From positions 1 to 64,000 of the forward strand of contig KZ538615.1 in assembly GCA_000934665.2 (NCBI GenBank): a DNA stretch of 64,000 nt, read 5' to 3'. Made by a program: the position numbers and the translations under genes. The DNA is from Catajapyx aquilonaris. Taxonomy: Eukaryota. Below are positions 32,901-38,900 of the stretch, one piece after another (position 1 is the stretch's first letter; each line of letters opens with the position of its first letter). The notes beneath the pieces were generated by a model that saw nothing but the letters and a program-made list of their open reading frames with translations, made no database searches and was not told the origin of the DNA.

Positions 32901-35900
32901 TTGATAGTCTTCATTAAAAGTTTCGTATCTGCTCCAAGGCCAACAGTCACATTTATGAAATGGGCTTTAAAAATAAACTAATGCCTCTACGTATTGCAAA
33001 GGAACAGATGCCAACTCAGGAAGTCAGTGACAGGATTGCAGGTTTAAATGGCCAATAAAAAATTAGCGGGACTTACCGCTTGAGTACTGGAACTCCATCC
33101 TGGTTGGGCTTGAATTCAGCCCTGTTACAGAGCAGAGCAATACGAGAGAGGGCCTTGAACCCAGGGCTGGTCCTGTCATATTGCACACCAGACTGGTCCT
33201 CAGTGGTGTCAGCCTCAATGATTTGGTTGTCAAACCACATGTGGGCCACAGTCATACGGTTCTGGGTCAGGGTGCCAGTCTTGTCTGAGCAGATGGTGGA
33301 GGTGGATCCCAGAGTCTCTACAGCTTCCAAGTTCTTCACCAGGCAGTTCTTGGAGGCCATTCGCTTGGCAGTCAGGGTCAGGCACACCTGGTTGTTTTGA
33401 ATATAAAATATTTTAATATCTTCATCAATAAACCATTATTATAATACAGATGCACCACAGAATACCATATAAAATTAACGGCACCCCAGCAACACTTTTG
33501 TTACTGTTTTTAAACAGTACATCCAAAGTCAAATAATGTTCTCACATTTAAATATTGCAAAATAAGTCACTTCCTACAATAACTGATCATTAGTAATTTA
33601 CTATGTGTCTGAAAAAACTTCACTATAACTGCTTGACATCAACAGACAAGAAAAACTCTAGAGCAGGCATAAAATCATTTCATGTTATCTTAATTTCTAA
33701 TTTCTCGAAACACTATGATTGCATGAATCAACACTGACCGTGACAGTGGCCAGGAGACCCTCAGGCACATTGGCCACAATGATACCAATGAGGAAGATGA
33801 CAGCATCCAGCCAGTGATAGCCCAGGACGAAAGCAATGAAGAAGAAGGTGATTCCCAGGAAGACAGCCACACCAGTGATCAAATGGATGAAGTGCTGAAT
33901 CTCCTTAGCAATGGGAGTGTCACCTGACTCAAGACCAGAGGCAAGGCCAGCAATACGTCCCATCACGGTCTGGTCACCAATGTTGATCACACAACCCTTT
34001 GCCGTTCCTGTTTCCAAAAAGGCTCAAGTCACAATTTGGCAAAGAAAAGGTCACAATTAAACCATTTAAGACTGACCCTCAACAGCATTGGTGGAGAAGA
34101 AGGCAAGGTTCTTGGTCTCAAGTGGGTTTTCGTTGGTGAATTCTGGGCTGCGGGACTGTGGCTCAGACTCTCCAGTGAGGGAGGAATTGTCCACCTTGAA
34201 TCCTCGGGTCTCCAGGATGCGTATGTCAGCCGGAATACGATCACCAAACTTCACTTCCACAATATCTCCAATAGTGAGCTCTTCTGCTCTCAGGGTAAGC
34301 TTCTGCCCTTCTCGGATGCATGTTGCAAACTGGAGAATGTATTGTGTAATAGCATTAATTCTGATTCTGATGAATTCCATTTTGCTCTCTAACGCCCCAC
34401 CCTCCTCTCCCAACATACTCACCCCCATCAAGTTCATCCCATATCCCAACCCCAATTACAGAAGCAAAAAACAAAACAAACAAAAAACAAACCAAAAAAA
34501 CTATATTACCCCCATTAGGTACAAGTCCACCTACAGTATGTCGTGACATCTGGCTGGCATCTACTCTTTCTAACCTGGGCAGTGTTCCACTAAGCTCGAC
34601 AAACTAAGTGTGTGGCAGCAGTTGGCTACAACACTGTCTTCTATTCTATTCTCTCAACACAGGTTAACAGGCATGCACTCAACAGCTTACCAACCTTCCT
34701 TGGCCCTTCTAGTCACAGGCTGCCATGGGATTAATGCCGCCTTTACTAAGCCACCCACAAGTGGTGTACTATGTGTGTGACTTGACATCCTGTACATCAA
34801 TGCCCCCTTTGATATATCCCCCTGTACCTATGCTCTGTGGTTAAATTGCAGGTAACCCCTTACATCCCACAATTGGACTTGTATCGATCATCACACTTCC
34901 CACTTCACATCCAACATTCTATCAATTTATGAACCGGTTAGTAGTGTGTATGAGTTGTGTGTTGTGCGACTTACCTGAGGCACCATGTTTTTAAATGACT
35001 CCATAATCCTAGAGCTCTTGGACTCTTGGTAGTACGAGAAACAGCCTGTGATCAACACCACTGCAGTCAGAACTATGCCCAGGTACAACTGCAATTGGGT
35101 ACAGTAATGCCAATGTTCAGAGCACACTTATACAACAGCAACAAGGCAGAGGAGGGAGCACCATGGCGGCAGCACCACTTACCAAATACACACTGCACAG
35201 TGCAAGTCGCTGCGCCTCAACTCCACTCTAAGGAATCTATTGCATAGTTACAGCTAAGTTACAATTTGCAAAAAATAATGCACAGTATTTCTAATAAATG
35301 GGTCGAGTCTCTGGTTCCCTTTGATCAGTGATCAACAAAATTGCAGAAATGCATGAAACAAATAGAAGAAATTAACTTGGCAGAAAGTGTGGCACTTGTG
35401 GGGAGCTATCTTCTTCTGTGTGTAAGAGCAAAATTAAAGCGGTGCAGCTAGGCCAAAAAAGTGTCAAAGTTATTAGTTGTTGGAAAAAAAATGTGCAGTC
35501 TCTTTTTTCCCTTGATGTGTGTGCAGAAACAAAGGAATGCTAAGAAATAAATAAATTTCAGCAGCATAATACATAATAGGCATAATAAACAATACCTAGC
35601 AATCGCAGTTGCAGCAACAATTAACAAATTTGTTGCCACGTGCTAAATGTGCTGGTAATTTACTCCTTTAAAAAAAAAATGGTACACATGAAAAAAATAA
35701 TCGACAGCACTTGGAGTACCTACCAAATAAACAAAACTATAAATCCCTGATGGGGCAGCACAATAAAACAAGACATTGGTAATGCTTTGAAAACGTGCGG
35801 GCAGAGTTGGTCGCACTTGACAGCCTGTACGTTGTACACGGTACCTGCCAGAATGAAGGTTGTGGGCAACGTAAGCACCACCTCTCCAGAGAGCTAGAGT

Positions 35901-38900
35901 AAAGGTGACACCTAGAGGTATAAATATAAATAAAACACCTAGAACATAGCATGCACCACTGACTATAATGCCAGTGCAGCTAGAGCCACAGCTACAGCCA
36001 CACAGCCAGAGCCAACACACAGGCTCCTTTCCAGGCTCTCTTCTTACCTGGGGAACCATACTCTTAAACGACTCCATGATAGCAGACGACTTTGCTTCTT
36101 GGTAATACGAGAAGCAGCCTGTGATGATCACTACTGCAGACAACACTACACCCAAATACAACTAGAAAAGGGATGAATGAAACACAAATAAGTAGTCAGC
36201 TGGCAGTTTCTCTCCCTGTTTTGTGTACGAATATGTTCAATATGTGTATGCAGAACTGCTTGATGAGGGGCATCCTGTTGACAAAAAGATTAATTGACAC
36301 AACACATGGAATAAAATCTGAAGATGAATGACAATTATTATCCTTGCCACATGCTATTGTACTATAGCAGCTGAAAATTTTGTGACACCCAACCACATCC
36401 TGGTTTCCCAGGTTGTTATTGCAAAATATCATGGTGACATCTTTCATTCCCAGATCCCCATGTGACAAGTGTCATAACACAATGTAAACTTAGCAGCTAC
36501 AACATGATATTCCATATAGATGACCACAGCTCGACCCCGAAGGCTAATGAGACAAATCCAGTGCGAATAATGATGAGCTCAAAAGGAGACTTGTCACGTA
36601 CATTGTCATCTGGAGGCTCTTCAAATGTGCCTGCCTGGATGGAGTAGGCAGTGAAGCAGAGGATGGCTCCAATCCACAGGAGCAAGGCAAAGCCTCCAAA
36701 CAAGTTCTTACAAAACTTGACCCATTCTGGGGTCTTCTTAGGAGGGGTAAGGGCATTTGGTCCATCCCGCTCGATGTTTTCCTTCGCTTTTGCTTGCGTG
36801 AGGCCCTGAAAAGAGCAGCACAAGTTAGTCATCAGCTGACTGTGAATACCGTGATTTCTGGAACTCATCCAAAACCTTCCTAAATTCTCCCTCATGAAGC
36901 AGGGGGCCATTGCTCATTAATAACTTCTTCAATATCTGTCACTGGCAAGTTGAGTTTTTTTAAACAAAGGTTATCATCATCATACTAAAATCAGAACTAA
37001 GCATCCGATCACACACCAAATGAGATATGATGAAAATTTCCAATCACGTTTTAATGCATAAACTAGGAAGGGTAGGCCTACTTATCATCTACATGGAAAG
37101 CATTAACTAGTTTCAAAAGTATCATTTGGAAGTTAAATTGTTTCAAAAAATTACCACAAAAACCATAATAGCTACATGATACCACATCTACTGTAAACAA
37201 ACAACATGCCAATCAAACATATTTTGAATCACACACTGATATTGTAAGCCTAAGTTGAGCACTATCACCTCCAAGCATATTCATTCATTTCCTGGTCACT
37301 CTCTACCTAGGCTCCCACCTGGGATTTTATGGAGTGGCAATACATGTGAAGGTTACTCAGTGTAAGCTTTGTACAAATCCAGGCCTTACACCAAGTGTCC
37401 TTCACTTGCCTGCCACATTCAGAATTTTTTTTCAGCAACAGAGATCCTAAGGGATGACCAAATCAATAGGTTTGCTGGTGAGAGTGCTCAACAGCAGCTT
37501 ACAAATCAGGTATAAGTCATGACAAAATCCTGGACAAGTGGACAAGCAATAATGATGGATACCTTGTGATAAGCCCCTTGGGATTTTCAGGGGATCATAA
37601 TTTTAATTGACAAACTTTAATCATTGCCTTTGCTGTGATGGATTTTGATAGTGGGAGGATACCGGAGAATCCCAAGAAAATCGACATAGAGAGAACCCAT
37701 CGCAACTCTGTCCACATAAGCATCCTCTGTCCAATCTGGAGATTGAACTCGGGACCTTAGAGCTGGAAGGCTGTGGCGCGAACCACTACACCATCGTGCT
37801 GCCCTAGGACAAGTGGACAAGTTGCTCAGGGCACACAACCAGGCATATGGGCATCAATTCTCTCTCAACTTTCTTCGCTTCAAACCATTTCAGAATTTGA
37901 AGAGGAAGTAGCACATCCTATGAATCCAGCATTTCATATGCAGGCACCACCTGTGAGCAGAGTTGTCCCTTTACTGGATCCTGGACCCACATGTTTTTTC
38001 TATTTCATTTCCCACATTCTGCCCTCAGGGTGTAGCGATGGAGGGTAACAGCCACAGATCAGATTGGACAAGAACTGACAGACACTGCCACATGACATGT
38101 CCTTTGGACACTCATTTTGGGTAGTTTAAAATTAAAATTCTGGCAGGTTTTTAGCACCTTCAGTGGTCACTGTAATGTAAAAAAATTACACATACTCAAA
38201 TTTCAAGCCCACATTTTCACTACTCAGAGAACGTTTATTTAATAACTGAGTCTCATTTTTCATCTAACACCACGTAAATCAATCCTGTACGAGATCCTTT
38301 GTGGTTGAAGTCAAGACACAAATTTTTGCTAAAATTACCACTATATTTTCGATATTCCCATTTTACTATAACTTTTGAGAGCAACATCATGCCTGACAAA
38401 TCCCTATCCCCATGCCGCAATTTATCCAGGTGGAATCAAGCCCCCACCCTCCCAGCATGACACCCTTAACCTTCAAACTCAAATAATCATCTCATTAACC
38501 CCAAACAAGCAACCCAAATCTAGATACAGCACTAGGTTGCACCTGAAGCCTAGAGGTATGAGCGTTTCTGTGTTCACTTGATGAGTGTTCCTGAAAAGCT
38601 TTCTTTTTGGTCATGCAAGATATCCAGATTATCCTAAGATTCTTGATCAAGAACATCTGAGACACTAGATGAATATTAATTTGAACTTGGGCTATTGCTT
38701 GAATTATAGTATGAGTTCATGTATAAATTCTGTCACCACTGCAGGAGAAAATGTGAATTGACAGCTGTGCCTGACAAAACCTCTGTCCACAAACACACAA
38801 TCCCACACCCAAATGTAATATGCTTTCATAATTATGCAGTATGAGTGTGGAATATTGCCAGTGCTTTCCACATTTTGAAATCTCACCTTTTACCCCCATT

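What the first reader, a model, noticed from the sequence alone, without database searches (positions are those of the whole stretch)
34975..36161. Second duplicated exon pair covering TM2, directly after cardiac-glycoside site N122
Seen: two intact 114-nt exons with good splice sites. They differ at 6 of 38 residues (V/I, S/T, I/L, A/S, A/R, S/N) and at many synonymous sites, which suggests an old duplication under purifying selection. The preceding exon ends exactly at N122. Known: mutually exclusive exons in Drosophila Atpalpha are described for the M6-L6/7 exon; I do not recall a duplicated TM2 exon there. Inference: 2 x 3 = 6 core pump isoforms from one gene, a splicing-based parallel to vertebrate ATP1A1-4 paralogues. 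The TM2/A-domain linker differences could tune E1-E2 kinetics or drug affinity.
Basis: partly seen in the sequence, partly recalled or inferred. Interest (0 to 1): 0.75.

Follow-up and report, generated by a model that had tools for sequence, protein, structure and literature searches.

The report
Alternative TM2 exons in sodium pump
An arthropod sodium-pump gene carries two tandem, intact copies of the exon for its second membrane helix, an old pair shared with lobsters, woodlice and many insects that most likely gives two pump variants by either-or splicing.

Summary
On the minus strand lie two 114-nt exons, A at 36161-36048 and B at 35088-34975. Both have AG/GT splice sites. They share 86 of 114 bases and differ at 6 of 38 residues. 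The preceding exon ends at N122.

The pair is old and constrained (dS 1.2-1.75, dN/dS 0.08-0.10). It is not private to this genome: the same A-then-B pair appears in 9 of 9 public protein models that hold both copies, from dragonfly, mayfly, stick insects, leafhopper, lobster and woodlouse. Two annotated crayfish isoforms differ only inside this exon.

Two positions separate A from B in all 8 species compared: Ala versus Ser/Asn at position 23, and Ala versus Lys/Arg at position 27. Both lie on the cytoplasmic M2 extension, far from the glycoside site. Kinetic tuning is therefore more plausible than a change in drug affinity.

No RNA pairing that would enforce it was found.

Nine literature searches found no description of this exon pair, although public isoform annotation already shows it. 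Verdict: a real, ancient feature and a new member of a known kind, of moderate interest.

The parts
36602..36805 (-). Constitutive upstream exon (exon 4 in the 15-exon layout). It encodes M1 and the M1-M2 extracellular loop and ends at N122 in phase 0.
   Evidence: residues 1-68 align to 55-122 of the 1016-aa alpha-1 chains. PF00690.
36048..36161 (-). TM2 exon copy A ([38 protein letters not shown]). It is of the 'EAKSSAIM' type.
   Evidence: AG/GT sites, 38 codons; identical to the first TM2 copy of the Ladona fulva model P0030; diagnostic Ala23 and Ala27.
35089..36047 (-). 959-nt intron between the two copies. It has no homology to the other introns, and no third exon copy was found in it.
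   Evidence: The best relic-like match is 35346-35328, and 4 of 100 shuffles reach its score.
34975..35088 (-). TM2 exon copy B ([38 protein letters not shown]). It is of the 'E[S/N]KSS[K/R]IM' type.
   Evidence: 2 differences from shrimp and barnacle TM2; diagnostic Ser23 and Arg27.
34077..34329 (-). Constitutive downstream exon ([11 protein letters not shown]...STNAVEG), the start of the A domain.
   Evidence: Boundaries were read from the sequence (acceptor ctccag|TTT, donor GAGG|gtcagt).
35815..35830 (-). 16-nt intronic element, one copy 218 nt downstream of exon A. The second copy is at 34780-34795, 180 nt downstream of exon B. This is a weak lead and may be chance.
   Evidence: D7, 94% identical; only these 2 matches, both on the same strand, with 1.10 expected by chance; 32 of 100 shuffles give 2 or more.
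25226..27176 (-). Context: cluster of three alternative 95-nt M6-L6/7 exons (27176-27082, 26305-26211, 25320-25226).

Best explanation
The window holds an arthropod Na+/K+-ATPase alpha-subunit gene on the minus strand, about 46168 to 23974, with a 15-exon layout. The exon for transmembrane helix 2 and the first part of the helix that links it to the A domain exists in two tandem copies, A and B. This duplication predates the split of hexapods and malacostracan crustaceans, and both copies have been kept. The most likely reading is that each mRNA takes one copy (mutually exclusive splicing). That would give two pump forms that differ mainly at two cytoplasmic positions of the M2 extension: residue 145 (Ala in A, Ser/Asn in B) and residue 149 (Ala in A, Lys/Arg in B), in mature alpha-1 numbering. 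Because this helix carries the movement of the A domain, the switch probably shifts the E1/E2 balance and the apparent ion affinities rather than glycoside binding. Shown: anatomy, age, selection, and conservation of the pair and its order. Inferred: either-or splicing in this organism, and the kinetic effect.
For: Anatomy and splice sites. Gene identity: 85-90% identity to annotated arthropod alpha subunits, Pfam PF00690, PF13246 and PF00702, and the DKTGT motif in the translation. Selection: dN 0.12-0.15, dS 1.2-1.75, dN/dS 0.08-0.10. Conservation: of the 336 proteins fetched, 9 models contain both types in tandem, and all 9 are in the order A then B (Ladona, Ephemera, Homarus, Armadillidium, four Timema models, Homalodisca). 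22 carry only the EAKSSAIM motif; these include both pancrustacean A isoforms (Schistocerca, Gryllus, Thrips, Frankliniella, Planococcus, Procambarus X2) and acariform mites and a gastropod, where it is the sole form seen. 130 carry only the B type. Procambarus clarkii X1 and X2 (both 1038 aa) differ at 5 positions, all inside this exon. In 8 species with both copies, positions 23 and 27 separate A from B without exception. Including both copies or neither would add or remove one membrane helix, which is incompatible with P-type ATPase topology (established knowledge).
Against: There is no transcript evidence from this organism. 114 is a multiple of 3, so double inclusion or double skipping would not be removed by a frameshift. 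No steric constraint applies, because the intron between the copies is 959 nt. No intron-intron pairing beat shuffled controls (18 of 20, 18 of 20 and 7 of 20 shuffles reach the observed best stem). Mean A-B distance within a species (5.1) is no larger than A-A distance between species (5.0). Several membrane positions (2, 13, 16) are the same in A and B of one species, so the orthology of each copy rests on two columns plus gene order. The RefSeq isoforms are computed models whose RNA support I could not inspect. The functional effect is wholly inferred.
Confidence: 0.72

Rival explanations
1. One of the two copies is a silent relic. It looks intact but is never spliced into mRNA in this organism.
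For: No transcript data could be read for this organism. In decapods the listed RefSeq isoforms are nearly all type B: Homarus 8 of 8, Panulirus 15 of 15, Penaeus monodon 6 of 6. Copy A may therefore be rare.
Against: Both copies keep an open frame and consensus AG/GT sites. dN/dS is 0.08-0.10 despite saturated dS. Copy A is identical in protein to the dragonfly copy A. Type A isoforms are annotated in crayfish, locusts, a cricket, thrips and a mealybug.
Confidence: 0.1
2. The copies arose by separate, lineage-specific duplications, or are homogenised by gene conversion. The shared A/B signature would then be convergent.
For: Within-species A-B distance (mean 5.1) equals between-species A-A distance (mean 5.0). 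Positions 2, 13 and 16 covary within species.
Against: The two diagnostic columns are fixed in 8 of 8 species. The order A then B holds in 9 of 9 models and in this window. dS between the copies is saturated, which argues against recent conversion at the DNA level here.
Confidence: 0.1
3. Both exons are routinely included together, or both skipped, so the locus is not an either-or switch.
For: 114 nt is a multiple of 3, so neither event shifts the frame. Nine public models contain both copies in tandem, and two models (Trichonephila P0255, Nezara P0336) skip the TM2 exon.
Against: Those models carry names such as 'hypothetical protein', 'unnamed protein product' and 'partial', as computed gene models do. 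An extra or missing membrane helix would invert the topology of everything downstream. The listed RefSeq isoform-numbered models carry exactly one copy each.
Confidence: 0.05

Closest known systems
Tandem mutually exclusive M6-L6/7 exons of arthropod Na+/K+-ATPase alpha (exon 11a/11b of barnacle NAK1; two to four copies in Daphnia, Anopheles and Ixodes, four in Drosophila). Source: Lind et al. 2013, PMC3793950, passages read.
   Same: Same gene. Both are tandem copies of one short exon with conserved splice phase and a few residue changes. This window has three such copies.
   Different: It is a different exon, encoding TM2 and the A-M2 linker rather than M6-L6/7. It is 114 nt and in-frame when doubled, whereas the M6 exons are 95 nt and shift the frame when doubled. 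The passages of Lind et al. that I read report 15 exons and only exon 11 in tandem copies; 'exon 5' and 'exon 4' have 0 occurrences in the paper.
Vertebrate ATP1A1-ATP1A4 paralogues
   Same: Both give several catalytic pump forms with different kinetics. Copy A is 92% identical over the exon to vertebrate alpha-1 TM2.
   Different: Vertebrates use whole-gene paralogues that differ throughout the protein. Here a single 38-residue module is swapped. That the vertebrate isoforms differ in kinetics is recalled, not tested here.
Duplicated exon 5N/5A of voltage-gated sodium channel genes (search listings only: PMC12772994, PMC8383430)
   Same: An ancient tandem exon pair that encodes a membrane segment of an ion-transport protein, with a few residue changes and either-or use.
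   Different: An unrelated protein family. Regulation and function are documented there and not here.

Membership tests
Na+/K+-ATPase alpha subunit (P2C-type ATPase) | P-type ATPase domains and the DKTGT phosphorylation motif | tested here: met
   PF00690, PF13246 and PF00702 on single exons. [12 protein letters not shown] appears in the exon at 33387-33076.
Na+/K+-ATPase alpha subunit (P2C-type ATPase) | Close full-length similarity to annotated alpha subunits | tested here: met
   82-90% identity over about 859 aligned residues to named arthropod alpha subunits, and 76% to vertebrate alpha-1; the best solved-structure hits are Na+/K+-ATPase alpha-1 and alpha-3.
Tandem-duplicated mutually exclusive exons | Neighbouring exons of equal length, equal splice phase and clear homology | tested here: met
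   114 nt each, phase 0 at both ends, 75% nt and 84% aa identity, 959 nt apart.
Tandem-duplicated mutually exclusive exons | Exactly one copy per transcript | not testable with these tools
Indirect support: the crayfish isoforms X1 and X2 differ only within the exon.
Tandem-duplicated mutually exclusive exons | Exclusivity enforced by frame (length not a multiple of 3) or by a short intron | tested here: not met
   114 = 3 x 38 and the intron is 959 nt. Some other mechanism must act, or exclusivity rests on selection against mis-spliced products.
Docking-site/selector RNA pairing clusters (Dscam1 or 14-3-3-xi type) | Intronic docking sequence complementary to a selector next to each variable exon | tested here: inconclusive
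   the best ungapped stems between the three introns score 27, 31 and 30, reached by 18, 18 and 7 of 20 shuffles; no complementary copy of the 16-nt repeated element in the window at 3 mismatches or fewer. No related genomic DNA was available to test conservation.

The most novel reading that the evidence does not exclude
The TM2 exon pair is a binary switch more than 450 million years old in the charge of the M2-to-A-domain helix. Position 149 is Ala in one copy and Lys/Arg in the other; position 145 is Ala in one and Ser/Asn in the other. It would give pancrustaceans two kinetic classes of sodium pump from one gene. It would have been lost in lineages whose gene has no intron after N122, and overlooked because the model insects lack it. 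Combined with the M6 cluster and the optional N-terminal exon, it would make a splicing-based counterpart of the vertebrate alpha paralogues.
Probability: 0.4. Interest if true: 0.55.

Novelty: new member of a known kind. Interest (0 to 1): 0.38.

Why it matters
The sodium pump alpha subunit is the target of cardiac glycosides and a model for parallel molecular evolution in insects. Work on target-site insensitivity reads residues 111-122, which sit just before this exon. If many arthropods make two pumps that differ in TM2 and its cytoplasmic extension, then cloned or assembled 'the' alpha sequences may be only one of two forms. Tissue-specific ion affinities may then come from splicing rather than from paralogues. 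The conserved Ala versus Lys/Arg switch also offers a natural experiment on how the M2 extension affects the E1/E2 cycle.

Tried and rejected
No reads were laid, so nothing can be said on expression.

2. Own genome: none is held.

3. Earlier notes of this scan: three look-ups found nothing.

4. RNA pairing. Whole-intron duplex folding gave meaningless full-length duplexes (one search timed out). The ungapped stem scan found nothing above shuffles. The inverted repeats are short, 12-24 nt and 71-92% complementary.

5. The 16-nt direct repeat downstream of each copy is not significant by the window-wide test.

6. Third TM2 copy: not found (tblastn at E of 1 or less). The best local DNA match in the middle intron is reached by 4 of 100 shuffles.

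7. Barnacle origin. I suspected this from the loop [14 protein letters not shown], but the motif is shared by spiders, ticks and a millipede, and the tree puts the window with hexapods.

8. Literature. Nine searches found no description of a duplicated TM2 exon. One search was badly chosen and returned unrelated papers.
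Full report
WHAT IS THERE

The window carries a Na+/K+-ATPase alpha-subunit gene on the minus strand. A tblastn of two crayfish isoforms against the window lays out exons from about 46168 down to 23974. Single exons hit PF00690, PF13246 and PF00702, and the DKTGT motif is present.

The finding's coordinates exactly span two exons:
- Copy A is 36161-36048. Copy B is 35088-34975.
- Each is 114 nt, or 38 codons. 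Each is preceded by AG and followed by GTAAG.
- They share 86 of 114 bases and differ at 6 of 38 residues (V/I, S/T, I/L, A/S, A/R, S/N). 15 more codons differ only synonymously.

The upstream exon (36805-36602) ends ...PPDDN in phase 0. Its 68 residues align end to end with residues 55-122 of the 1016-residue alpha-1 chains 3wgu_A and 7d91_A, and with 62-129 of the 1023-residue chain 7e1z_A. So it does end at N122 in the usual mature numbering. The downstream exon starts at 34329.

Homology between the copies ends at the splice signals.

AGE AND SELECTION

Between the copies, dN is 0.12-0.15, dS is 1.2-1.75 and dN/dS is 0.08-0.10 by three methods. Third positions are identical at 21 of 38 sites; first and second positions at 65 of 76. 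Both copies have therefore been under purifying selection for a long time. I found no third copy. tblastn at E of 1 or less found two copies, and the best DNA match in the middle intron is reached by 4 of 100 shuffles.

THE PAIR IS NOT PRIVATE TO THIS GENOME

I ran three protein searches:
- With the 295-residue exon: 7989 of 7999 candidates passed and the best 120 were listed.
- With exon A: 789 of 790 passed and 120 were listed.
- With the upstream exon: 2414 of 2421 passed and 120 were listed.

Together they brought in 336 proteins. Scanning them for the linker motif gave:

| Motif class | Proteins |
|---|---|
| Only QEAKSSAIM (type A) | 22 |
| Only QE[S/N]KSS[K/R]IM (type B) | 130 |
| Both types in one model | 9 |
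| QEA[K/R]SS[K/R]IM (vertebrates, spiders, ticks, a millipede) | 124 |
| None (mostly fragments) | 51 |

The 9 models with both types come from Ladona fulva, Ephemera danica, Homarus americanus, Armadillidium vulgare, four Timema models and Homalodisca vitripennis. In 9 of 9 the order is A then B, as in this window. These are read-through gene models, so they show the genomic arrangement, not double inclusion in mRNA.

Type A alone occurs in numbered isoforms of Schistocerca, Thrips palmi, Frankliniella occidentalis, Planococcus citri and Procambarus clarkii, and in a Gryllus model. The two Procambarus clarkii isoforms X1 and X2, both 1038 residues, differ at 5 positions (149, 153, 167, 171, 179). 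All 5 lie inside the exon at 145-182. This is the best available support for either-or use. It is a computed annotation of another species, and I could not inspect its RNA support.

WHERE THE WINDOW BELONGS

No protein in the collection is more than about 90% identical to the window's gene. I built a maximum-likelihood tree from about 859 aligned residues and 31 named representatives. The window sits with hexapods, near the base of the insects.

| Representative | Identity to window |
|---|---|
| Ladona | 89.8% |
| Ephemera | 89.4% |
| Folsomia | 88.5% |
| Decapods | 85-86% |
| Amphibalanus | 82.6% |

Since malacostracans and hexapods share the pair, the duplication predates their split.

Some genomes lack an intron after N122: 32 of the 260 proteins with a recognisable M1 run straight from N122 into TM2, and most of these break off after ...YYQ. 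They are 31 unnamed fragments with insect-type loops plus one beetle model. In such genes a 114-nt cassette cannot exist. A further 19 break right after N122, including fish models and a spider model, so that intron position itself is old.

I did not check whether Drosophila is among the genes without the intron.

WHAT DISTINGUISHES A FROM B

In the 8 species with both copies, only two columns separate the types without exception:
- Position 23 is Ala in A and Ser/Asn in B.
- Position 27 is Ala in A and Lys/Arg in B.

These are residues 145 and 149 in mature alpha-1 numbering. They lie in the polar stretch [13 protein letters not shown] that follows the 20 hydrophobic residues of M2, on the cytoplasmic side, in the helix that runs to the A domain.

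Outgroups have Ala at position 23 and mostly Lys at position 27. Acariform mites and one gastropod have Ala at 27. Each copy therefore seems to carry one derived state.

The residues at the extracellular end, next to N122, are not diagnostic; position 5 is Ile or Val in both types. The conserved function of the switch is therefore unlikely to be glycoside affinity.

My inference is that the switch acts through the charge and hydrogen-bonding of the M2 extension, whose movement accompanies A-domain rotation. That would shift the E1/E2 poise and the apparent ion affinities. This rests on the established mechanism of P-type ATPases, recalled rather than tested here.

One unexplained detail remains. 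Positions 2, 13 and 16 are the same in A and B of a given species but differ between species, and the mean A-B distance within a species (5.1) equals the A-A distance between species (5.0). Either both copies co-adapt to the rest of the protein, or gene conversion acts on the membrane part.

HOW EXCLUSIVITY COULD BE ENFORCED

Nothing was shown.
- Frame cannot do it, because 114 is a multiple of 3. The three M6 exons are 95 nt each, so doubling them does shift the frame.
- Steric hindrance cannot do it, because the intron between the copies is 959 nt.
- A scan for ungapped stems between the three flanking introns gave best scores of 27, 31 and 30. These are reached by 18, 18 and 7 of 20 shuffles.
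- A 16-nt element repeated about 200 nt downstream of each copy has no complementary partner in the window and is not significant.
- Copy B has the weaker pyrimidine tract and the better donor.

Without related genomic DNA this question stays open.

LITERATURE

Nine full-text searches found no paper that describes a duplicated TM2 exon in this gene.
- Lind et al. 2013 (PMC3793950; passages) describe the barnacle NAK1 gene. They report 15 exons, an optional 27-residue N-terminal exon and tandem exons 11a/11b, and they note two to four copies of exon 11 in other arthropods. The passages I read name no other tandem exon, and 'exon 5' occurs 0 times.
- Taverner et al. [quoted passage not shown] The three supplementary files held as text had no hit. 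Files not held, such as the alignment, may name the exons.
- Four further papers had no relevant passage. Two that mention Atpalpha splicing in Drosophila do not concern this exon.

Papers in subscription journals were not searchable.

VERDICT

This is a real, ancient and well-conserved tandem exon pair. It is very probably spliced in an either-or fashion. Public isoform annotation already shows it, but as far as I could search it is not described in print. It is a new member of a known kind: tandem alternative exons in arthropod sodium-pump genes. The step that was missing here is junction evidence from this organism.

Noticed in passing
window 27176-27082, 26305-26211, 25320-25226 (minus strand): Three tandem 95-nt alternative exons for the M6-L6/7 region (VPAISLAYE...). 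They are 64-68 of 96 nt identical pairwise over the 96-nt stretches compared and differ at 6-9 residues. Their length is not a multiple of 3, unlike the TM2 pair.
   Followed up: partly
window 46168-46052 (minus strand): This N-terminal exon ([20 protein letters not shown]...) matches the decapod N-terminal stretch at 46% identity. It corresponds to the optional 27-residue exon 2 described for barnacle NAK1, so it may be a further alternative exon.
   Followed up: no
window 35815-35830 and 34780-34795: A 16-nt element (15 of 16 identical) lies 218 and 180 nt downstream of TM2 exons A and B. No complementary copy was found in the window, and the match is not significant by shuffling.
   Followed up: yes
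TM2 exon positions 2, 13 and 16 in 8 species (proteins P0018, P0030, P0084, P0090, P0119/P0120, P0125, P0301 and the window): Membrane-embedded residues are the same in copies A and B of one species but differ between species. This suggests co-adaptation or partial gene conversion between the copies.
   Followed up: partly
window 18762-20039 (minus strand): A 426-residue open frame matches the Pfam Gcd10p family (E 1.4e-64). It is the neighbouring gene downstream of the pump gene, and this stretch appears to have no intron.
   Followed up: partly
protein P0124 (Frankliniella fusca model): Its second tandem TM2 copy is a divergent form (…FSYWQEAKSGSIMDSFKSLVPQ) rather than type B. Thrips may therefore have a differently evolved or third copy.
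   Followed up: no
proteins P0255 (Trichonephila clavipes) and P0336 (Nezara viridula): These gene models join N122 directly to the exon after TM2, skipping the TM2 exon altogether. This is probably an annotation error, but it shows that in-frame skipping is easy to predict.
   Followed up: no
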